DNA of 64,000 nt, taken from positions 1 through 64,000 of the IMG/VR virus record IMGVR_UViG_3300049995_000120. One strand, written 5' to 3'. This document shows, one piece after another, positions 1-60,032 of the stretch (position 1 is the first letter of the stretch; each line of letters begins with the position of its first letter). Both the position numbers and the translations under genes were made by a program. Origin of the DNA: a virus. A model generated the notes under the pieces. It ran no database searches, was not told where the DNA came from, and saw only the letters and a list, made by a program, of their open reading frames with translations.

Positions 1-2
1 AA

Positions 3-167
3 GGCACCCTGCCCGTCGATGGTGACTGGAATGAGGCCTTGTTTAAGTTTTCTGTTCAGCTAGCAAAATCATACGAAATACGCTCGCGTTGTTCCTATTG
101 CCGGCATAAATACACGGAAGAAGACAAATATTCTTGCTCTAAGTGTGGTGCGCCAAAGGAGGCATAA
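3..167 (+). CDS. 5'-truncated hypothetical protein with C-terminal zinc ribbon
   Basis: Open frame from the window edge: ...RCSYCRHK...SCSKCGAPKEA*; the stop overlaps the next ATG (TAATG). Confidence 0.6.
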   Translation, partial: GTLPVDGDWNEALFKFSVQLAKSYEIRSRCSYCRHKYTEEDKYSCSKCGAPKEA

Positions 168-388
168 TGTTTTACGACATCATGAGTATTCTCTGGTTAA
201 TTCTTGCTTGTTATTGCTTGCTCTTTGAGCATGATACAGACCACTTCGTGATCGCTCTTGCTATGGCCATGGCCAATGTCGCATTGAGCGAGATAGGCAA
301 AATCAATAAGATCTTAGATGTAACGGGCTTGAAAATTGCGGCTGAAACTTTGTTCGCCGTAGAGAAGAAACGGAAGGAGAAGTCATGA
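167..388 (+). CDS. small membrane protein
   Basis: AGGAGG SD before ATG167; two hydrophobic segments. Confidence 0.6.
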   Translation: MFYDIMSILWLILACYCLLFEHDTDHFVIALAMAMANVALSEIGKINKILDVTGLKIAAETLFAVEKKRKEKS

Positions 389-615
389 CTTTTATATTAA
401 GAATTATACTAGGTGCGTGGTTTGTTTGTTTCTGTTTGGATTTGTTCCTGTTATTATATACATCAAAACGAATGTATGACTCTGGTGCAAACTGTCAACA
501 CCGGATTCTGTTATTGACACTTATGGTTATTGTGTCCCTTTCTGGCCCATTATTGTTAATCGGCCTGGAAATTTACGGTAAGAGGAATCCCACGTCCCTG
601 GATATTTTTGTCTAG
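385..615 (+). CDS. small two-TM membrane protein
   Basis: ATGA overlap with the previous gene; two hydrophobic helices. Confidence 0.6.
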   Translation: MTFILRIILGAWFVCFCLDLFLLLYTSKRMYDSGANCQHRILLLTLMVIVSLSGPLLLIGLEIYGKRNPTSLDIFV

Positions 616-680
616 ACGTAAACAAGAATTCCCGTATTATCAGCTTGGACGCAAAGTGTAAATACTTCTTCAATAAGAGC

Positions 681-709
681 TTGCAAAGTGGGAGGGTTTG
701 ATGTAGAAT
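681..709 (+). promoter_or_regulatory. sigma70-type promoter for the HNH leader
   Basis: TTGCAA(681-686)-17 nt-TAGAAT(704-709). Confidence 0.6.
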
Positions 710-715
710 GGGGGC

Positions 716-821
716 GCTGAAGGTTGGCGATTTTGTTTGTCAATAGAATACCGCTTTTGTGGAATCGCCAGATCTTCAGCAAACTGACAAACACCACAAA
801 GGCGGTACTCTATTTTAGGAG
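716..821 (+). ncRNA. structured leader RNA of HNH gene (hairpin with loop complementary to the SD-proximal region)
   Basis: 716-732 pairs with 763-780; loop 734-742 is complementary to 785-793; loop 742-762 is complementary to 794-814; AGGAG at 817-821. Confidence 0.7.
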
Positions 822-826
822 TACGA

Positions 827-1381
827 ATGAATAGAATTAAACGATGTTCAAAATGCAAAAAGATAAAATCCGTTTCTGAATTCCATAAAAACAAAGCAGA
901 AGTAGATGGGTTGTGTTATTGGTGTAAAGAGTGTAATAAAGCACATGTAAAAAAATATTATCAAAATAATTCCGAAAAAAGAAAATCATATTCGAGAGAT
1001 TATAGGCAAAAGAATCCGTCTGCCATTTATCAATATAATAAGCGCTATAAGAACAACCATCTTGAAACGACAAGAGCCTTCTTCAGGGTGTATACTCATA
1101 AACGACGCGCTTTAATGCAAAGTAATGGGGGAGAATTTTCGATGACGCAATTTCTTGCGCTTATTGAATTTTATTGCGCTTCTGGAAATTGTTTGGGTTG
1201 TGGTAAAAATTGCAAGTTTGATGCAGATCATGTTATACCCATAATATTGCGCGGAGAAAATACAATTTCTAATATACAGCCTCTTTGTCATAGCTGTAAT
1301 TCAAGAAAACATATTAAGATTATTGATTATCGACCTGATCATGGGGTTTATGCTCAATGGGTTGAGAAAAATATAAAATAA
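827..1381 (+). CDS. HNH endonuclease with N-terminal zinc finger
   Basis: CSKC...CKEC N-terminus; CLGC...DHVIP...N...LCHSCNSRK HNH motif; visibly AT-rich compared with flanks. Confidence 0.9.
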   Translation: MNRIKRCSKCKKIKSVSEFHKNKAEVDGLCYWCKECNKAHVKKYYQNNSEKRKSYSRDYRQKNPSAIYQYNKRYKNNHLETTRAFFRVYTHKRRALMQSNGGEFSMTQFLALIEFYCASGNCLGCGKNCKFDADHVIPIILRGENTISNIQPLCHSCNSRKHIKIIDYRPDHGVYAQWVEKNIK

Positions 1382-1409
1382 AGAGAGCGGTCTTAGACCG
1401 CTCTCAACT
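1378..1409 (-). terminator. intrinsic terminator after the major capsid gene
   Basis: GAGAGCGGTC/GACCGCTCTC hairpin followed by TTTATTT on the minus strand. Confidence 0.65.
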
Positions 1410-1424
1410 AATTCCCAATCAGGG

Positions 1425-2894
1425 TCAGATTCGAGTGCCACCCCAAACAGCATAGTAGCGCTGATTGGCGCGTAGTGAAACACCACCATCCGCAAAGTAG
1501 CTGGAGGCGGGATCAAACTCGCGTGAGTGCTGGAGAGGAGTGTACATCACAGCATCGATGCGGCCCGCGAGTTGCGGGGTGCGCAGGACGATGCGAGGTT
1601 CCACCTTGACAGACAACTTAAAACACCACTTGACGTACTCAACGGCCCAGGAGTACATGCCACTGTCGGTCCACCAGAAGTGCTCGGTGCCGTTCAAGAG
1701 GGCCACGTCTGCCTGTGCCTGACGATAGTCGGCATACTCAAAGTATGTTACTGGGAAGCCACCCGTGATTGTGAGCGGCACCATGTAAATAGTTGAAGCA
1801 TACTGACCAGCGCGCAGATTGGCGTTGTTGACGTTATTGTGCTCGAAGATGCCCATGTCGGTGATGACTGGGTAGCGCACACCATTGATATCGATGTACA
1901 TGCCGGCGCGCATGGCGTTACGCATGTCGATATTACTGGTATCGTTGATGACCCCCACGGTTGTCTGACCGGCCACCAAACTTGAGCAGCGGTTGGTCAA
2001 ATAACGGCAAGGCCAGCAGGCCGATAACTCTTCCCACAACTGGGGGCGCATAACGATCACCCACTGAACCGGAGTAAGGCCCATGTGGTCTGCGTTGAAG
2101 CGCAGGTAGTATTCCAGGGCGCTTAGATATTCTACGATATCCAGGACTGTACCGCACACGTTCTGATAGCCGAAGTTCTTGACATCCGAATCGAGCGCGG
2201 GGCAGGCCACGTTGGTATGGGCATCCACCTGACCGGTCGCGATTTGACGATCCAGACCAGGGAACTCTATATAGCCTCCGCCGGCATTGCTGTTAGCGGG
2301 GTTGCCCTGCCAGACCTGGTTGGTCAGGAGACGTTCCAGGTTGACGCCGGCGATAATCATTTCGCTTTTCGTAACCACGTTGAGTGCATCGGTCTGGCTG
2401 GTCACGGGGCTTAGAGGGCCACCGGAGAGCAGTTGACCGCGCAACACGAGGTCGCGGAAATCGCCGCGATTGAAAGTTTTGAAGACCTTGTCCATTTCAA
2501 TGGTCTGGGTGTCACGTGCGTAACGCCCGAACATTGCGGTAAGGTTACAACCCTTCATAAAGCCGGCTGGTGCGTCAGAGCAGGGATAGGTAGGTTCATT
2601 GCCAGTTGTGGCAGTGAAACCAGTGATACTAGCGAAGATGGGGTTCTCTTCTGTAGTAGGAAGGCGCTGAAGCACCTGCACAATCCCGCCCAGAGGGCGG
2701 ATATGGGCAGTGATTACATCCCGCTCGATCGGGAAAGAACCGAACAACGAGCCATTGCCGTGCAGTTCGGTGAAAGTCCCAAAGTTAGCGGGGGTATTCT
2801 TCTGGTGCATCTGCTCCTTGCTATACAGAGCCTTTAGAGCCTCCGTATTCGCCTGCATGTTGTCATACATGCTTTTGAGCATTTTTTCGTCCAT
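1425..2894 (-). CDS. major capsid protein (probable)
   Basis: 489 aa, directly downstream of the protease/scaffold in the terminase-portal operon; GGAGG SD; followed by a terminator. Confidence 0.75.
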   Translation of the reverse strand: MDEKMLKSMYDNMQANTEALKALYSKEQMHQKNTPANFGTFTELHGNGSLFGSFPIERDVITAHIRPLGGIVQVLQRLPTTEENPIFASITGFTATTGNEPTYPCSDAPAGFMKGCNLTAMFGRYARDTQTIEMDKVFKTFNRGDFRDLVLRGQLLSGGPLSPVTSQTDALNVVTKSEMIIAGVNLERLLTNQVWQGNPANSNAGGGYIEFPGLDRQIATGQVDAHTNVACPALDSDVKNFGYQNVCGTVLDIVEYLSALEYYLRFNADHMGLTPVQWVIVMRPQLWEELSACWPCRYLTNRCSSLVAGQTTVGVINDTSNIDMRNAMRAGMYIDINGVRYPVITDMGIFEHNNVNNANLRAGQYASTIYMVPLTITGGFPVTYFEYADYRQAQADVALLNGTEHFWWTDSGMYSWAVEYVKWCFKLSVKVEPRIVLRTPQLAGRIDAVMYTPLQHSREFDPASSYFADGGVSLRANQRYYAVWGGTRI

Positions 2895-2913
2895 TTGATC
2901 CTCCGAATGAGGT

Positions 2914-4830
2914 TTAGGATGGCTTGGGCTGATCGAATTCTTTCATGATCTGATCAACCACGAAGTATCCAATGTTGGTCGCGCCGGCGGCGGGTGGGAC
3001 CTGAGTTTCCTCAGGCTTTGACTTCGCTAGGGCGGTACGACCATCCACCAAAGTCTCGGAATTGCCAATCACGGAGCGAGCCAGGAGAGCAGAGAGAGAC
3101 GCGATAGGCGTCTGTGCAGCCGCTTTCGTGATCTTCGCTTCGTCTGTTTCTTTCAGGGATTTTACATCACCCTGCAGAGTGGCAACCGTGGCTTCCATGG
3201 TATCAAAGCGATGGTCGATGGCTGTCAACCGCTCGTTGATAACCGCAGAAACCGCGTCGGCAATTTCTTGGACGGTGGGAATGGGATTGGCTGGAGGGGT
3301 TGGAGCCTCAGTTTCTTTAGTGATCGGAGAAGATGCAGGTACGGGGGGAACAGCCGGGGCCGTCTCCGGGGGAGTTGTGGCGGCAGTTGGCTCAACAGTT
3401 TCTTTTGACTGAATGCCAGCCGTCTTTGCCTCCTTTGCCATATCCGCATTCTTTTTCTCAAGATCATCGAGAACTTCGGCAGGGATACCCAATTCGATCA
3501 ACGCCTTTTTCTTGTCGTTGGGAATAGCCATATTTGAATCCTCCTTGAGAACTGTGAAACTGGTGAGCATATTGGCCGCTGACTTGGTAGGCAACGGACT
3601 GATTTCCGCCGTAACATGCTCGATAATTACGGTGGGGTCTTCGGGGTCGCGCACGATGGATTTTATTGGCATTCCGTGGGACACCCGTAGTTCTTTGGGG
3701 TCAATTTGGGACAGGTATTCAGCAAGAGGTTCACAGCCCTTGCGTACTGTCCCCAGGGCGAGAGCGAAACCGGCATCATCATAGGCCAGCCAGGTTGCGT
3801 CTCCCCAGGCATACTCTGGGATATGGTACAGCCAGAGTTCGGGTTGCGGGACAAATCCTTTATCGACTTTATCGACAAAAGATTCATGAGAGTGGGAAGA
3901 GATAATTTCAGGCGGGTTGTCCCGATCCCTGAAATTATTGGAGTAACGCGCGCTCCAGTGCCAGGTGCCATCGGCTTCTTTCCATAACATCAAGCCAGAG
4001 TTGTCAGGATCGACTTCTTTGATTTCCCATCCAAAGATAGTACCGAACCACTCTTTGACTTTATCGCCTAACGACTTATTGGCATTCGCCAGAATCTTCT
4101 TGGCGCGCGCCTGAAGTTTAGAGCGCAATGATTCGGAGAGCCAGGATTCGCCTTCTACTTTACCGGTTGCAGACTGCCCCAGGCGGGAAAGAGCATTGCG
4201 CAAGTGGGGGAGATCGATCGAGCCATCAGCCTTTTTGTAGGGGAGATGACGCTTGGAACGAGGAGTTGTTTTTCCCCCCGAATCTTTCTCGCCGCCCGGT
4301 TCAACGTACAGGAACGCAGAGTCAGGTAGGTCATTGGTGGAAGCGGAGGCCTTGGTTTCTGAATCTTCGCCCCCCTCTGCGCTGGCATCCGCAATATCTT
4401 TATCCAGGCGTTTAGCAAGTTTTTCAGCCAACGATTGAATATTTGATGCCTTTTCAGATACCGTGGGAATATCAATATTCCACAAAACATCCAAAACCAG
4501 ATTTTGGAAGTCGGAAGACGTGGAGCGGAGTTCATTAACGGCGTCCTCGGATTCCCGCCAGGCATCGAGTTCTTCCCAGGTAGTAATTGTGGAAGGGAAG
4601 AAGGATGAAGACTTTTCCGTTTGAGTTTCCAGTTCCTTGAGCAACATTTCTTCCTGTTCCACGGTCAGGTCTTTCTTAGAGCGCCCCTCTGCGGCGTATA
4701 GGGCGCGCATGTGTGCGCCTGCCTTTGCGTTTGTATCATGGCATCCACCAGGCACTACCGCGCCTTTTTCGTCTCCCACCTTTTTACAAACACAAAATTT
4801 ACCATCCTGCTTATATACTTGATAGGGCAT
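2914..4830 (-). CDS. prohead protease / scaffold fusion
   Basis: Central protease-like segment (SNNFRDRD..EII..LWLYH..EIS); Pro/Ala-rich and coiled-coil C-terminus; lies just before the capsid gene. Confidence 0.65.
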   Translation of the reverse strand: MPYQVYKQDGKFCVCKKVGDEKGAVVPGGCHDTNAKAGAHMRALYAAEGRSKKDLTVEQEEMLLKELETQTEKSSSFFPSTITTWEELDAWRESEDAVNELRSTSSDFQNLVLDVLWNIDIPTVSEKASNIQSLAEKLAKRLDKDIADASAEGGEDSETKASASTNDLPDSAFLYVEPGGEKDSGGKTTPRSKRHLPYKKADGSIDLPHLRNALSRLGQSATGKVEGESWLSESLRSKLQARAKKILANANKSLGDKVKEWFGTIFGWEIKEVDPDNSGLMLWKEADGTWHWSARYSNNFRDRDNPPEIISSHSHESFVDKVDKGFVPQPELWLYHIPEYAWGDATWLAYDDAGFALALGTVRKGCEPLAEYLSQIDPKELRVSHGMPIKSIVRDPEDPTVIIEHVTAEISPLPTKSAANMLTSFTVLKEDSNMAIPNDKKKALIELGIPAEVLDDLEKKNADMAKEAKTAGIQSKETVEPTAATTPPETAPAVPPVPASSPITKETEAPTPPANPIPTVQEIADAVSAVINERLTAIDHRFDTMEATVATLQGDVKSLKETDEAKITKAAAQTPIASLSALLARSVIGNSETLVDGRTALAKSKPEETQVPPAAGATNIGYFVVDQIMKEFDQPKPS

Positions 4831-15570: not shown

Positions 15571-15648
15571 ACCTCTATCCTGATCCTATTATACCACATT
15601 CGTTGCAGGGAAGTAGTTTCCTGCAATTTATCTTGCAGACAGTAGGAA

Positions 15649-51296: not shown

Positions 51297-51527
51297 TTAG
51301 TCGGGGGCAGGCACAAGAGGATCATGATAATTTAAAATTCTGGCAACATCATAAAGAGAAATTAAACCTTTTTCAGTTAGCAATTCAATAAGGTTTGCAA
51401 CTGCCAATTCAACGCTGATTCCATCCAGATCATTGGCGTCATGTTCATAAAAAATATGTACAATCCAAGTGGTTAACTCAACAGGATTGGCCTTGAAAGA
51501 AGAATAGGGTTTATATTGAATTTTCAT
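51297..51527 (-). CDS. hypothetical protein
   Basis: MKIQYKPY...; AAGGA SD lies inside the upstream hairpin. Confidence 0.45.
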   Translation of the reverse strand: MKIQYKPYSSFKANPVELTTWIVHIFYEHDANDLDGISVELAVANLIELLTEKGLISLYDVARILNYHDPLVPAPD

Positions 51528-51701
51528 ACAGCAAAAATCCTTATGGTATGTCTCGTGTCCTGTGGCCTTCCCGCGCCCTCCATGGGGAAAGGACATAAGA
51601 CATCCCATAAGGATTCTTGGGAGAGCGCCATTCTGGAAGCCACGCCAGGTAGGGTCAAATCACTACGCCATTATTGTATGATAATGGCATAGTTTTGTCA
51701 A
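51528..51701 (-). promoter_or_regulatory. promoter and long hairpin leader with an alternative pairing
   Basis: TTGACA-17-TACAAT; interrupted stem of about 30 bp at 51533-51618; loop elements complementary to 51620-51643. Confidence 0.55.
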
Positions 51702-55848: not shown

Positions 55849-56322
55849 CTAAATTGGCTCCTTGGGATTATGCCATTTCCAGTGTTTGCCCCGATGAGTA
55901 TGGCCCATTTTGTATTTCATTTGACGCCCCCATTTATTACGAGACATTATAAGTTCGTGACACCCACATTGACAAGGCACCAAGGTGCGAGGCAATTTTC
56001 TTTTTTTAATGGTTTCTAAAAGTTGCTCAATCCGCTTTTGGGTTTTCTCCAAAGGCCAAGAACGAATATGATTTTGAGCATGTAAAGAGGGAGAGATTAT
56101 CATAAGATTATCAATAGTGTTATCATCAGTAATGCCGTTGATATGATGAACATACTCTTTAGATTCTAAAAACCGCCGCAAATAGTTTTCCATGACTAAT
56201 CTATGTTCAAAAACATAGCCATTTTTCTTGGCTTTTGGATGATTTGGACAACGAACCAAAATATATCTCTCTGAGCGTACTTTATGCCCAATCGGCAGAG
56301 GGGTCCATGTGTCCATTATCAC
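55849..56322 (-). CDS. HNH endonuclease
   Basis: EHRLVME...VHHINGITDDN..DNL; C-terminal CQCGC. Confidence 0.85.
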   Translation of the reverse strand: MIMDTWTPLPIGHKVRSERYILVRCPNHPKAKKNGYVFEHRLVMENYLRRFLESKEYVHHINGITDDNTIDNLMIISPSLHAQNHIRSWPLEKTQKRIEQLLETIKKRKLPRTLVPCQCGCHELIMSRNKWGRQMKYKMGHTHRGKHWKWHNPKEPI

Positions 56323-57961: not shown

Positions 57962-58849
57962 ATGAACGACACCCTGAAGTTTTGGGTAAAGATTTTTGGT
58001 TTCATTTTTGCTGCCTTGGTCATCGCCTATTCATCGGTGCTGACCTATCTCATGGCCGGACGCTTGGTGCCAGGAAATTTCATCTTGCAGTTAGCTACCG
58101 TCCTGCTCTTTGACGGTGGTGCGCTAATCTGGTTTTTCCAATTCGTCTGCCATGCCAAAGGAACGGCGCAGTGGGGCTTCGCCGGCTTGGGTTTTGTTGT
58201 GGGCTTACTTGGCGCGGTAGTAATGGCTGCCGGCGAACTGATCATGTCTCAAAATCTGGTGGTATTCAGTGATATGTCTCGCTTGGGTTGGCTTTTAATT
58301 GGTACGGTGGTGGTAGCGCTTATCACCCACATCACCCTCACTTATCTGTTCCACATCAGCGATCCGGCCCTCATGAACTCCATTGAAAACGCTCAGGCTG
58401 TTGCTAAAATCGTGCGCGGCGCTTCCATCGACGCCCACGCTGAACTTGATCGCAAACAGCACGAATTGGGGCGCGGCATAGCTGACTCCATTTATGCCCA
58501 GGCGATTCAACAGATCGAAACGGTCACAGCCTTCCACATCCGCAACAAACGCTTAGAAAAGGGTAAAACCGATGAGTTTCTGCACGGTAATGTTCTGTCT
58601 GGTGTAGCGAGGGATGTTCCTTTGATGCCCATGACTACCACTCCAGGCGGTAATGGGCGCAAGCAGATTTACAGTCACAAACCCGCCAATGCCAAACGTG
58701 GCCTCTTCAAGCGCGGCGCACCCAAGCGCGGCCCTGCGGCTTTTAACGCCAGCGCGGCTCCCACTGTGATCGTCACCGCCCCTCCCGGTGTGCAGGAGGC
58801 GCACCAACCTCGCCCCCCGTCCCCAACGAGTTTCGACAACAAGCAGTAA
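57962..58849 (+). CDS. four-TM membrane protein with cytoplasmic tail
   Basis: AAGGAGG SD; four hydrophobic helices then a coiled and Pro-rich tail. Confidence 0.75.
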   Translation: MNDTLKFWVKIFGFIFAALVIAYSSVLTYLMAGRLVPGNFILQLATVLLFDGGALIWFFQFVCHAKGTAQWGFAGLGFVVGLLGAVVMAAGELIMSQNLVVFSDMSRLGWLLIGTVVVALITHITLTYLFHISDPALMNSIENAQAVAKIVRGASIDAHAELDRKQHELGRGIADSIYAQAIQQIETVTAFHIRNKRLEKGKTDEFLHGNVLSGVARDVPLMPMTTTPGGNGRKQIYSHKPANAKRGLFKRGAPKRGPAAFNASAAPTVIVTAPPGVQEAHQPRPPSPTSFDNKQ

Positions 58850-58971
58850 AAGGATTAAGAATCTGCCGCGTATGTGGTGAAGAGTTTGAAGGCGCGCGCA
58901 ACGCCCGTTATTGTTCTTGGAAATGCAAACAAAGAGCATATAGATTCCGCAAACTAACTGTGGTAAAATAG
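58813..58971 (+). CDS. -1-frame zinc-finger extension (frameshift product or gene remnant)
   Basis: RICRVCGEEFEGARNARYCSWKCKQRAYRFRK in a frame with no start codon ahead of it. Confidence 0.5.
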   Translation, partial: PPVPNEFRQQAVKGLRICRVCGEEFEGARNARYCSWKCKQRAYRFRKLTVVK

Positions 58972-58975
58972 TTTT

Positions 58976-59085
58976 GTCTAGGAATGAGCGGAATTTTAAT
59001 TTGCTTATATAGAGCCGTTACTTTGTTAATTCCGCTGTTCCTAGACCCAACAGCAAAACAAAGTAGCGGCTTTATATTTTGGAGG
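58976..59085 (+). ncRNA. structured leader RNA of HNH gene (same topology as 716-821)
   Basis: TGgTAAAAT at 58961-58969; 58976-58995 pairs with 59028-59046; 59000-59005 with 59052-59057; 59007-59026 with 59058-59077; GGAGG at 59081. Confidence 0.7.
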
Positions 59086-59089
59086 CTAT

Positions 59090-59578
59090 ATGCAAATCAT
59101 ATATTCAATTAGCGGGGATGAGATTTTCGTGGACGACGATGATTATCCACTATTGAATCGCCATAGATGGAGTGTAACTCGTGAAGGATATGTAATAGGA
59201 CAGATTGCAGATCGTTCTATTACGATGCATCTGCTAATAATGGGGAAAAGAAAAGGACATGAGGTTGATCATATTAATGGCGTAGGATGTGATAACAGAA
59301 AATGCAATTTGCGGTTTTGTACTCATTCTGAAAATATGCGAAATAGTATTTCTCAGATATTCTTTTTCTGGAGAAGAACACCAAAAAAGCCTTCACGAGC
59401 GCGTTCATTACCACCTATACATTATGGCCCTCAAAAGATTGTTCCCTTTCGTTGTAAACAATGTGGTCATTTATTTCAAGGAAAACCCAACAGCAGATAT
59501 TGTTCTGCTGCTTGCAAACAAAAACATTATCGTTTCCGTAAACGCATACAACACAACATCGTAGACATTTCTCCGTGA
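59090..59578 (+). CDS. HNH endonuclease with C-terminal zinc finger
   Basis: MHLLIM..VDHING..DNRKCNLR..SEN; CKQC...YCSAAC. Confidence 0.85.
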   Translation: MQIIYSISGDEIFVDDDDYPLLNRHRWSVTREGYVIGQIADRSITMHLLIMGKRKGHEVDHINGVGCDNRKCNLRFCTHSENMRNSISQIFFFWRRTPKKPSRARSLPPIHYGPQKIVPFRCKQCGHLFQGKPNSRYCSAACKQKHYRFRKRIQHNIVDISP

Positions 59579-59663
59579 TCGTAGACAAAATCGTAACAAT
59601 TTGTCTAGCGCGGCGCTCAATCTTTTATTCATGCCAGCGCGGCGCAAGATAAATTGTATGCTT

Positions 59664-60032
59664 TTACAGGTCTGCAACCAAGCCAAACTCGACCTCGACC
59701 CCTGCGCGGCCTTGGCGCTTTTCTCCCCCAAGATCTCTGGTGATATAGCGATCATCCACAAACACCACGCCTTTGGCAGCATCACATAGCGCTTTTAGCA
59801 GGTTATCAATATCGCACTGGTAGAGCGGTCCCGTGCGCACTACCAGCCAGCGTACAAAAAGCGGTACACGCGGCGGGAGCATTGGCCAGTCGTTTTGTAG
59901 CATCTGTGCCTTGTAGCCCCAAGCGAGAGCGGTCTGGTTCTGGATATACTTTTGCGCCTTGGGTATCCACAGGCCTCTCGTAGTCATGCGGGTATAGGGA
60001 ATCAACTGAAAGTCTTCAAACACGAATTTCAT
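59664..60032 (-). CDS. rusA: RusA-like Holliday junction resolvase
   Basis: DIDNLLKALCDA..GVVFVDDRYI. Confidence 0.85.
   Translation of the reverse strand: MKFVFEDFQLIPYTRMTTRGLWIPKAQKYIQNQTALAWGYKAQMLQNDWPMLPPRVPLFVRWLVVRTGPLYQCDIDNLLKALCDAAKGVVFVDDRYITRDLGGEKRQGRAGVEVEFGLVADL

What the first reader, a model, noticed from the sequence alone, without database searches (positions are those of the whole stretch)
681..1381. HNH nuclease cassette with a dedicated pseudoknot-like leader RNA (copy 1 of a repeated architecture)
Seen: a promoter (TTGCAA-17-TAGAAT), then a ~17-bp stem (GCTGAAGGTTGGCGATT / AATCGCCAGATCTTCAGC) enclosing a 30-nt loop. The loop holds element a' (TGTTTGTCA), complementary to TGACAAACA just 3' of the stem. 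It also holds element b' (AATAGAATACCGCTTTTGTGG), complementary over 21 nt (one mismatch, one GU) to CCACAAAGGCGGTACTCTATT, which ends 2 nt before the AGGAG of the HNH gene. a and b lie in the same order as a' and b', so they cannot form one simple hairpin. The unrelated HNH at 59090 has the same topology with no evident sequence identity, so the structure rather than the sequence is conserved. Established analogy: P1 C4 and P4 CI RNAs are processed from a leader and silence the downstream gene through bipartite pairing. Inference: a portable RNA-plus-HNH module in which the hairpin is a cis or trans antitoxin or timer for a toxic homing nuclease. A more speculative reading is that the ~20-nt loop acts as a guide or specificity element. 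I know of no named family that fits; it is not HEARO/IscB, as there is no RuvC.
Basis: partly seen in the sequence, partly recalled or inferred. Interest (0 to 1): 0.88.

Follow-up and report, generated by a model that had tools for sequence, protein, structure and literature searches.

The report
Interlocked-helix leader RNA before HNH genes
Two unrelated selfish DNA-cutting (HNH homing-endonuclease) genes of this uncultured sediment phage, and a third in an unrelated phage, each sit behind their own promoter and a ~100-base RNA leader. The leader has two long, interlocked helices that are kept by matching mutations and end just before the ribosome-binding site, so it most likely gates how much nuclease is made.

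Summary
The sequence facts are correct. Copy 1 has a promoter-like site, a 17-bp bulged hairpin S1 (716-732/763-780) and a 21-nt loop segment b' (742-762) that pairs with b (794-814), ending 2 nt before AGGAG. Copy 2 (58976-59089) has the same layout. The two leaders are weakly but significantly alike (45% identity, almost without gaps, p~0.001).

A covariance model built from them found a third member in front of an HNH_3 gene in an unrelated 37-kb phage. It has the same promoter motif, the same spacing and an interlocked S1 that the model did not include. Across the three leaders, 14 of 14 S1 positions and 17 of 21 S2 positions show double compensatory changes. a'/a is not conserved.

No Rfam family matches, although the P1 positive control scores 68.8 bits against C4. 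S1 and S2 cross, and the two nested folds are close in energy in copies 1 and 3 (about 2 kcal/mol); copy 2 favours S2 by about 6.

Best reading: a promoter-leader-nuclease module that moves between phages and whose 5'-UTR gates translation in cis. The direction of control is not settled. A processed C4-like trans RNA is possible. A guide RNA is unlikely.

This scan has noted other loop/RBS leaders before nuclease genes in other phages, but none resembles this one in sequence.

The parts
681..709 (+). Copy 1 promoter-like site: TTGCAA, 17-nt spacer, TAGAAT. The predicted +1 is about 716, the first base of S1.
   Evidence: This is a consensus match only; such matches are not enriched over shuffles.
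716..732 (+). Copy 1, S1 5' arm
   Evidence: 17 pairs with 763-780; -22.8 kcal/mol on its own
733..741 (+). Copy 1, L1: U-rich linker inside the S1 loop.
742..762 (+). Copy 1, b' (S2 5' arm). It lies in the S1 loop and abuts the S1 3' arm with no spacer.
763..780 (+). Copy 1, S1 3' arm, with G771 bulged
781..793 (+). Copy 1, L3: A/C-rich linker.
794..814 (+). Copy 1, b (S2 3' arm). It ends 12 nt before the ATG. Bases 805-811 can instead pair with the SD region 818-824.
817..829 (+). Copy 1 ribosome-binding site: AGGAG 817-821 and ATG 827-829
827..1381 (+). HNH1: a 184-aa HNH endonuclease (PF01844/PF14279) with an N-terminal Cys4 finger. Orphan: its closest relatives are at most 43% identical.
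1383..1405 (.). Terminator-like G+C hairpin between HNH1 and the convergent capsid-position gene
   Evidence: called on the - strand only; bidirectional use is inferred
58959..58972 (+). Copy 2 promoter motif TGTGGTAAAATAGT (extended -10). The predicted +1 is about 58976, the first base of S1.
   Evidence: The same 14-mer precedes the tmRNA cluster. TGTGGTACAATAG precedes the third leader.
58976..58995 (+). Copy 2, S1 5' arm, with G58986 bulged
59007..59027 (+). Copy 2, b' (S2 5' arm)
59028..59046 (+). Copy 2, S1 3' arm
59057..59077 (+). Copy 2, b (S2 3' arm). It ends 12 nt before the ATG.
59081..59092 (+). Copy 2 ribosome-binding site: GGAGG 59081-59085 and ATG 59090-59092
59090..59578 (+). 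HNH2: a 162-aa HNH_3 endonuclease (PF13392) with a C-terminal zinc ribbon. Orphan.

Best explanation
This is a self-contained cassette of promoter, leader and nuclease gene that moves between phages. The mRNA is predicted to begin at the first base of a 14-19-bp hairpin, S1.

The 30-32-nt S1 loop carries a 21-nt segment, b'. That segment pairs with the 21 nt (b) that end 3-4 nt before GGAG, forming helix S2.

S1 and S2 cross. The leader must therefore be one of two things:
- a long-stem H-type pseudoknot, with no spacer between b' and the S1 3' arm, a U/A-rich L1 and an A/C-rich L3; or
- a two-state switch between 'S1' and 'S2'.

S1 is transcribed first, so the RNA is born in the S1 state. b then has to invade the S1 loop.

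In either case a large, stable structure occupies the whole stretch just upstream of the Shine-Dalgarno sequence, where a 30S subunit would otherwise dock. I infer that the leader acts in cis to hold down or delay translation of a potentially harmful homing endonuclease. It probably also protects the 5' end of the mRNA.

Shown here: the anatomy, the conservation and the portability. Inferred: the promoter and +1, the translational effect and its direction.
For: **Structure**
- Both helices are present in both copies.
- On a sequence-only alignment, S1-inner is 100% paired with 4 of 7 pairs changed on both sides. S2 is 97.5% paired with 7 of 20 changed on both sides. Sliding the partner columns drops pairing to about 40%.

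**Third member**
- Model R1, which encodes S2 plus sequence, found it at L153:555-665, immediately upstream of an HNH_3+AP2 gene.
- Its 14-bp S1 was not in the model, yet it is interlocked in the same way.
- There is no spacer between b' and the S1 3' arm, and b ends 12 nt before the ATG, as in both window copies.
- Structure-anchored comparison of the three leaders gives double compensatory changes at 14 of 14 S1 positions and 17 of 21 S2 positions.

**Portability**
- The host contig G001 shares only the HNH_3 domain with this genome.
- The promoter motif TGTGGTAMAATAG is shared.

**Specificity**
- Among 4,917 SD-plus-start candidates in about 200 fetched loci and this genome, only these three leaders reach the combined score, plus one plain long hairpin that scores through S2 alone.

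**Energetics**
- S1 alone is -22 to -25 kcal/mol and S2 alone is -26 to -33.
- The two nested states differ by 1.6-5.9 kcal/mol.
- S1 is the minimum-energy fold until about 90-105 nt have been made.
- The nested refolding barrier is 28-31 kcal/mol.

**Precedent**
- T-even homing-endonuclease genes are translationally restrained by leader hairpins. One of them (seg43 of Aeromonas phage 25) ends just upstream of the RBS without covering it (PMC2988022).
- Structured standby sites upstream of the SD can change initiation more than 100-fold (PMC3936740).
Against: - No RNA data exist for this phage, so the promoter, the +1 and the transcript ends are predictions. The promoter scan is not enriched over chance.
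- S2 stops short of the SD in all three leaders, so the RBS is not directly occluded.
- Predicted SD and AUG accessibility in the S1 and S2 states is not consistent between copies.
- In copy 1, b' pairing would actually free the SD from a local -9 kcal/mol anti-SD hairpin. That points to activation. The feature is weak in copy 2 and absent in the third member.
- Pseudoknots near the 5' end can also promote translation, as in tisB (PMC7708055) and IncI repZ (PMC8053102).
- ViennaRNA cannot score pseudoknots. Steric feasibility of full S1+S2 with L1 of 9-11 nt is my own estimate.
- The family has only three distinct members.
Confidence: 0.5

Rival explanations
1. A C4/CI-like riboregulator. The S1 hairpin (65-71 nt) is cut from the leader and is more stable than the mRNA. 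It accumulates and silences later transcripts in trans through b':b pairing next to the RBS, giving a burst of nuclease and then shut-off.
For: - The layout resembles P1: a promoter, then a 17-bp bulged stem enclosing the recognition sequence, 3-5 nt, then target elements, with the last one ending 10-12 nt before the AUG (searches compared).
- Regulator and target lie on the same transcript, as in P1 c4 and P4 CI.
- b':b pairs of the three leaders differ at most positions, so they would be orthogonal, as P1 and P7 are (PMC5320573).
Against: - There is no Rfam C4 or c4-a1b1 hit even at E<=10, while P1 scores 68.8 and 51 bits.
- C4 presents short elements in a hairpin loop and a junction, in the order b' then a'. 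Here a single 30-nt loop holds a 21-nt element.
- The CCA-like tail after S1 is present only in copy 2.
- Nothing shows a cleavage between S1 and b.
- A cis interaction explains the same facts without an extra step.
Confidence: 0.15
2. An mRNA stability and processing element only. S1 or S2 serves as a 5' protective structure or as an RNase III site (about two helical turns) that sets the half-life of the nuclease mRNA, without gating ribosome binding.
For: - S1 starts at the predicted +1 in all three leaders.
- S2 is 21 bp, about two helical turns, the length I recall RNase III substrates needing (own knowledge, not checked here).
- S1 is a 14-19-bp helix, bulged in copies 1 and 2 but uninterrupted in the third member, and in the bulged copies it resembles phage RNase III sites (my own knowledge of T7 and lambda).
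Against: - It does not explain why b is held exactly 12 nt from the AUG in all three leaders.
- It does not explain why two crossing helices are needed.
- No processing data exist.
Confidence: 0.15
3. A transcription attenuator. S2 followed by UAUUUU acts as an intrinsic terminator, and S1, which forms first, acts as the anti-terminator.
For: A conserved U-run (UAU(A)UUUU) follows S2 in all three leaders. S1 and S2 are alternatives in nested folds.
Against: - The base of S2 is A-U rich and part of the U-run lies inside the stem.
- The S2 loop is 27-31 nt.
- S1 and S2 share no nucleotides, unlike known attenuators.
- The terminator scan does not call it, though that scan only allows loops of 3-8 nt.
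Confidence: 0.07
4. A DNA-level element. The interleaved inverted repeats would be a protein operator (autorepression, as for I-TevI), a recombination site or a cruciform, rather than an RNA.
For: Compensatory change preserves DNA hairpins as well as RNA ones. I-TevI represses its own promoter (PMC2988022).
Against: - G-U (G-T) pairs are tolerated in the helices.
- The element always lies between a promoter-like site and the SD, on the sense strand, at fixed distance from the AUG.
- Arm sequences turn over completely, which no sequence-specific DNA-binding protein would tolerate.
Confidence: 0.04
5. A guide RNA. The loop sequence would program the HNH nuclease to a DNA target.
For: None beyond the constant association with HNH genes.
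Against: - The loop's only complement in the phage genome is its own leader.
- The three nucleases belong to two unrelated HNH families with ordinary zinc-finger or AP2 DNA-binding modules.
- There is no RuvC domain and no match to any Rfam family (which includes HEARO).
Confidence: 0.02

Closest known systems
RBS-controlling leader hairpins of T-even phage homing-endonuclease genes (I-TevI, I-TevII, I-TevIII, segB, mobE; seg43 of Aeromonas phage 25), review PMC2988022
   Same: A structured RNA directly upstream of a free-standing or intron-borne homing-endonuclease gene that limits its translation. The seg43(25) hairpin likewise ends just upstream of the RBS without covering it.
   Different: - Those are single hairpins that usually contain the SD. 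They are bypassed by a late promoter placed inside the hairpin.
- Here there are two long crossing helices. The SD is left outside, the predicted start is at the base of S1, and the leader travels with its own promoter.
P1/P7 C4 antisense RNA with its a1b1/a2b2 targets (Rfam RF01695, RF03163) and P4 CI RNA
   Same: - Regulator and target lie on one transcript in the same orientation.
- A bulged stem of about 17 bp encloses the recognition sequence.
- The last target element lies about 10-12 nt before the AUG.
   Different: - No covariance-model match.
- C4 has three stems, with 7-8-nt elements in a loop and a junction in the order b' then a', and a 22-nt spacer between a2 and b2.
- C4 is cut out by RNase P and acts in trans for immunity.
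- Here one 21-nt element lies in an open loop and abuts the stem. Processing is unknown.
Activator pseudoknot of IncI-alpha/IncB repZ/repA mRNAs (Asano and Mizobuchi 1998, as cited in PMC8053102)
   Same: The loop of an upstream hairpin pairs with a sequence just 5' of the RBS of the controlled gene, giving a pseudoknot.
   Different: There the pairing is only a few nucleotides (own recollection). It activates translation, depends on leader-peptide translation and is blocked by an antisense RNA. No antisense RNA and no convincing leader peptide is seen here.
5' pseudoknot of the tisB toxin mRNA (PMC7708055)
   Same: [quoted passage not shown]
   Different: It lies about 100 nt from a sequestered RBS and is required for translation. 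It is small and unrelated in sequence.
Other loop/RBS leaders before phage nuclease genes noted in this scan (e.g. e1-5610869, e1-6001539, e1-5625626, e1-3721453)
   Same: Covarying leader RNAs shared by unrelated homing-endonuclease genes in uncultured phages, read as brakes on translation.
   Different: By their notes, a hairpin loop pairs with the RBS itself (kissing loops). Here the loop pairs with the 21 nt next to the RBS. No look-alike by sequence was found. I did not check those notes.

Membership tests
Rfam C4 antisense RNA (RF01695) / c4-a1b1 (RF03163) | Scores at or above the family's gathering threshold with the covariance model | tested here: not met
   No C4-clan hit at gathering or at E<=10 on 300-nt windows around both leaders. 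The positive control on P1 gives 68.8 and 51 bits.
Rfam C4 antisense RNA (RF01695) | A long closing stem P1 enclosing two hairpins P2 and P3, with b' in the P3 loop and a' in the junction | tested here: not met
   - A closing stem of similar length and bulge is present.
- The enclosed 30-32 nt form only marginal A-U/G-U mini-hairpins in copy 1, and none is conserved.
Rfam C4 antisense RNA (RF01695) | Recognition elements ordered b' then a' against targets a2 then b2, separated by a spacer, with b2 at the RBS | tested here: not met
   - In P1, b' UCACUAAC precedes a' CUGUCAA, and a2 and b2 are 22 nt apart.
- Here the order is a' then b' against a then b, with no spacer, and a'/a is not conserved.
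Rfam C4 antisense RNA (RF01695) | Processed from the leader (RNase P) to a stable ~77-nt RNA that acts in trans | not testable with these tools
   No RNA run holds this phage.
T-even type homing-endonuclease leader hairpins | Located directly upstream of a homing-endonuclease gene | tested here: met
   Three of three leaders precede HNH genes.
T-even type homing-endonuclease leader hairpins | The hairpin sequesters the Shine-Dalgarno sequence | tested here: inconclusive
   - S2 ends 3-4 nt before GGAG in all three leaders.
- A local anti-SD hairpin is strong only in copy 1.
- Computed SD and AUG accessibilities differ between copies and between states.
T-even type homing-endonuclease leader hairpins | A late promoter inside the hairpin gives transcripts that escape repression | not tested
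   The late-promoter type of this phage is unknown. A TAGAAT lies inside b' of copy 1, but that alone is no evidence.
HEARO / IscB omega-RNA (HNH-associated guide RNA) | Rfam HEARO match, and an HNH inserted in a RuvC nuclease | tested here: not met
   No Rfam hit. The proteins are 160-184 aa with HNH plus zinc-finger or AP2 modules only.
Classical H-type pseudoknot | Two helices in the order S1a-S2a-S1b-S2b with loops able to span the stems | tested here: inconclusive
   - The strand order is met, and both helices covary.
- There is no spacer between b' and the S1 3' arm. L1 is 9-11 nt and U/A-rich. L3 is 10-13 nt and A/C-rich.
- Whether 14-19 bp and 21 bp can form fully at the same time could not be computed. 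My estimate is that only about 14 bp of S2 fit.

The most novel reading that the evidence does not exclude
The leader is a C4/CI-like riboregulator that belongs to the mobile nuclease cassette. The 5' hairpin would be released, outlive the mRNA and shut off later transcripts through b':b pairing. Each homing endonuclease would then bring its own orthogonal RNA timer into whatever phage it invades.
Probability: 0.15. Interest if true: 0.75.

Novelty: new variant of a known kind. Interest (0 to 1): 0.55.

Why it matters
Homing endonucleases must be expressed enough to spread but not enough to harm the phage they ride in. How free-standing ones manage this outside the T-even phages is largely unknown.

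Here two unrelated HNH families carry the same promoter-plus-leader unit, and the unit occurs in two unrelated phages. That points to a transferable expression-control cassette, not a regulatory signal of the host phage.

The RNA itself is unusual. Two helices of 14-21 bp cross each other, both are kept by compensatory change, and the alternative folds are close in energy. That makes it a compact natural test case for pseudoknot-versus-switch control of translation, and possibly a useful orthogonal part. If other scan notes on loop/RBS leaders hold up, structured leaders may be a general attribute of phage homing-endonuclease genes.

Tried and rejected
1. **RNA evidence.** No RNA holder is listed for this phage. 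The four DNA runs laid on 1-3000 hold identical sequence in short contigs, with no joint that would mark the cassette borders.
3. **Relatives of the phage.** The capsid-position protein has no match in IMG/VR patterns or GenBank phages. The leader plus HNH1 has no blastn match in phages.
4. **First architecture scans** of 77 and 73 HNH loci were negative. They had false negatives from a wrong start codon and from a G-U extension bug. I redid them without assuming a start codon.
5. **Pattern scans gave only chance hits apart from the third member.**
   - CAAAG..GCGG..TATTTT..GGAG in IMG/VR and in metagenomes.
   - TTTATATTTTGGAGN{4,5}ATG in IMG/VR (69 loci) and in GTDB genomes (120 loci, capped).
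   - The promoter-to-SD pattern in IMG/VR.
6. **The genome search with model R1** on the two records known to hold the third leader returned nothing, because the first-look filter missed it. That blank means nothing.
7. **a'/a as a third helix** is rejected: it is not conserved and is sterically incompatible with S1 and S2.
8. **The SD / anti-SD / SD-mimic switch** is attractive in copy 1, weak in copy 2 and absent in the third member.
9. **Leader peptides.** Open frames span both leaders (TTG at 724; ATG at 58984, 42 codons), but they lack credible start signals and their length is not beyond chance.
10. **Other HNH genes of this genome** (55849-56322 on the minus strand; the one inside the intein; the one after the tmRNA cluster) lack the leader.
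11. **No third copy** in the 80.5-kb genome by nhmmer or by the covariance model.

Full report
**Setting.** The window is the first 64 kb of an 80.5-kb IMG/VR virus record from freshwater sediment, estimated 72% complete.
- The protein at the capsid position has no relative in IMG/VR patterns or GenBank phages.
- Family scans found four HNH genes, and an ORF read after the tmRNA cluster looks like a fifth from its motifs (not scanned against Pfam).
- Two of them are free-standing, low in G+C and have their own promoter-like site:
  - HNH1 at 827-1381 (PF01844);
  - HNH2 at 59090-59578 (PF13392).
- Both are orphans. The nearest proteins are at most 43% and 36% identical.

In copy 1:
- TTGCAA, 17 nt, TAGAAT (681-709) puts the predicted +1 at 716, the first base of S1.
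- S1 (716-732/763-780) has 17 pairs and one bulge.
- Its 30-nt loop holds b' (742-762). b' pairs over 21 positions (one mismatch, one G-U) with b (794-814).
- b ends 2 nt before AGGAG.

Copy 2 repeats the plan:
- an extended -10 at 58961-58969, with the predicted +1 at 58976;
- S1 with 19 pairs and a bulge;
- b' 59007-59027 paired with b 59057-59077;
- GGAGG, then the ATG at 59090.

In both copies b ends exactly 12 nt before the ATG.

The structure is more than chance:
- The folds are far more stable than shuffles (z -3.65 and -4.2).
- The S2 helices rank among the five longest in the genome.

**The two leaders are homologous, and both helices covary.**
- A nearly gapless MAFFT alignment gives 45% identity. 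The permutation test, run on the best ungapped match count, gives p~0.0008. nhmmer does not connect the two.
- On that sequence-only alignment, S1-inner is 100% paired with 4 of 7 pairs changed on both sides.
- S2 is 97.5% paired with 7 of 20 pairs changed on both sides. Slid controls fall to about 40%.

**A third member in an unrelated phage.**
- A covariance model of S2 plus sequence (R1) hit L153:555-665. The score is 18.7 bits, with E 0.11 over 187 kb and 0.001 within the locus.
- The hit fills the spacer before an HNH_3+AP2 gene that is 31% identical to HNH2.
- It has the promoter motif TGTGGTACAATAG, against TGTGGTAAAATAG in copy 2, with the +1 again at the base of a hairpin.
- It has a 14-bp S1 that the model did not contain, interlocked with S2 in the same way.
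- There is no spacer between b' and the S1 3' arm. L3 is A/C-rich. b again ends 12 nt before the ATG.
- The identical leader occurs in two IMG/VR contigs of one 37-kb phage. That phage shares only the HNH_3 domain with this genome by tblastx.
- Anchored on structure, the three leaders show double compensatory changes at 14 of 14 S1 positions and 17 of 21 S2 positions. This alignment is fitted to the structure, so the count leans towards it.

**How specific is it?**
- Across 4,917 SD-plus-start candidates in about 200 fetched loci and this genome, only these three leaders reach the combined S1+S2 score. One plain long hairpin at 51527 (minus strand) scores through S2 alone.
- That set includes 160 HNH loci from IMG/VR.
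- Further pattern scans of IMG/VR, metagenomes and GTDB genomes gave no other member (with scripts 43, 77, 108, 117, 119, 120).
- The family is therefore real, portable and, as far as these searches reach, small.

**Known families.**
- Rfam gives nothing at gathering for the whole window and no C4-clan hit at E<=10 around either leader.
- The same search on P1 finds C4 at 68.8 bits and c4-a1b1 at 51 bits.
- The P1 annotation and sequence show where the anatomy differs:
  - C4 is a 17-bp bulged stem enclosing two hairpins;
  - b' (8 nt) lies in a loop and a' (7 nt) in a junction, in the order b' then a';
  - a2 and b2 are 22 nt apart.
- The overall layout is alike: a closing stem, a few nucleotides, then targets ending about 10-12 nt before the AUG. 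The anatomy is not.

**Energetics and topology.**

| Leader | S1 alone (kcal/mol) | S2 alone (kcal/mol) |
|---|---|---|
| Copy 1 | -22.8 | -26.2 |
| Copy 2 | -25.1 | -32.6 |
| Third member | -21.9 | -25.7 |

- The nested S1 and S2 states differ by only 1.6-5.9 kcal/mol.
- S1 is the best fold until 90-105 nt have been transcribed. After that S2 takes over, and copy 1 flips back to S1 between about 110 and 130 nt.
- The nested refolding barrier is 28-31 kcal/mol.
- The helices share no nucleotides but cross each other. The RNA is therefore either a switch held by topology or an H-type pseudoknot.
- My estimate (inference): L1 of 9-11 nt lets about 14 bp of S2 stack on an intact S1.

**Function.**
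- S2 never covers the SD, and computed SD and AUG accessibilities are inconsistent between copies.
- In copy 1, bases 805-811 of b can pair either with the SD (-9.0 kcal/mol) or with b'. That would make b' an activator. The feature is weak in copy 2 and absent in the third leader.
- What is constant is a large structure occupying the entire pre-SD region, at a fixed distance from the AUG.
- Two precedents bear on this:
  - translational restraint of homing-endonuclease genes in T-even phages (PMC2988022);
  - the strong effect of structured standby sites on initiation (PMC3936740).
- Given these, I favour a cis-acting brake or delay on translation (confidence 0.5).
- Pseudoknots that promote translation exist too (PMC7708055; PMC8053102), so the direction of control remains open.

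**Other notes of this scan** describe loop/RBS leaders before nuclease genes in at least seven other phage genomes. None resembles this leader in sequence. I did not test those notes.

Noticed in passing
window 58747-58971 (+): A frame without a start codon encodes a zinc-ribbon tail (ICRVCG...RYCSWKCKQRAYRFRK). It is 44% identical over 59 aa to the C-terminus of HNH2 (E 1e-11). It overlaps the end of ORF 57962-58849 in another frame and stops inside the copy-2 promoter motif. It looks like the remnant of an earlier HNH_3 gene at the same site.
   Followed up: partly
L002:411-2873 (genome 69.9-72.4 kb, outside the window): A DNA methyltransferase ORF carries an intein-like insert (CLSDDTEIL ... 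FITGNS). Its middle has no nuclease motif. A complete HNH_3 gene (L002:841-1641) is read in another frame over the same DNA.
   Followed up: no
L008:13041-13370 (genome 77041-77370): A phage tmRNA with a 33-residue tag follows the same 14-nt promoter motif, TGTGGTAAAATAGT, as leader copy 2. About 470 nt of apparently non-coding, structured sequence and another HNH gene (L008:13842-14227) come after it. That HNH gene lacks the S1/S2 leader.
   Followed up: partly
window 51527-51700 (-): After a TTGACA-type promoter-like site, the leader of the gene starting at 51527 holds one of the longest hairpins of the genome (51532-51561 with 51590-51619). The hairpin ends in a U-run just before the start codon. 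This is a different architecture from the HNH leaders.
   Followed up: no
window 58959-58972; L153:538-550: The motif TGTGGTA(A/C)AATAG doubles as the last codons and stop (V-V-K/Q-stop) of the upstream reading frame, both in copy 2 and in the unrelated 37-kb phage. A near match, TGTGGTATAATAGG, lies at 15585-15598 (-).
   Followed up: partly
window 59596-59657: A long imperfect hairpin lies between HNH2 and the convergent RusA gene (59664-60032, minus strand). It is probably a bidirectional terminator. A perfect TTGACA-17-TATAAT on the minus strand at 60230-60202 would drive RusA towards HNH2.
   Followed up: no
L282/L283 and L236 (IMG/VR contigs): The 14.8-kb contig joins the two ends of the 37.3-kb contig at over 99.9% identity. 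The 37-kb record is therefore probably a complete circular or circularly permuted genome.
   Followed up: partly
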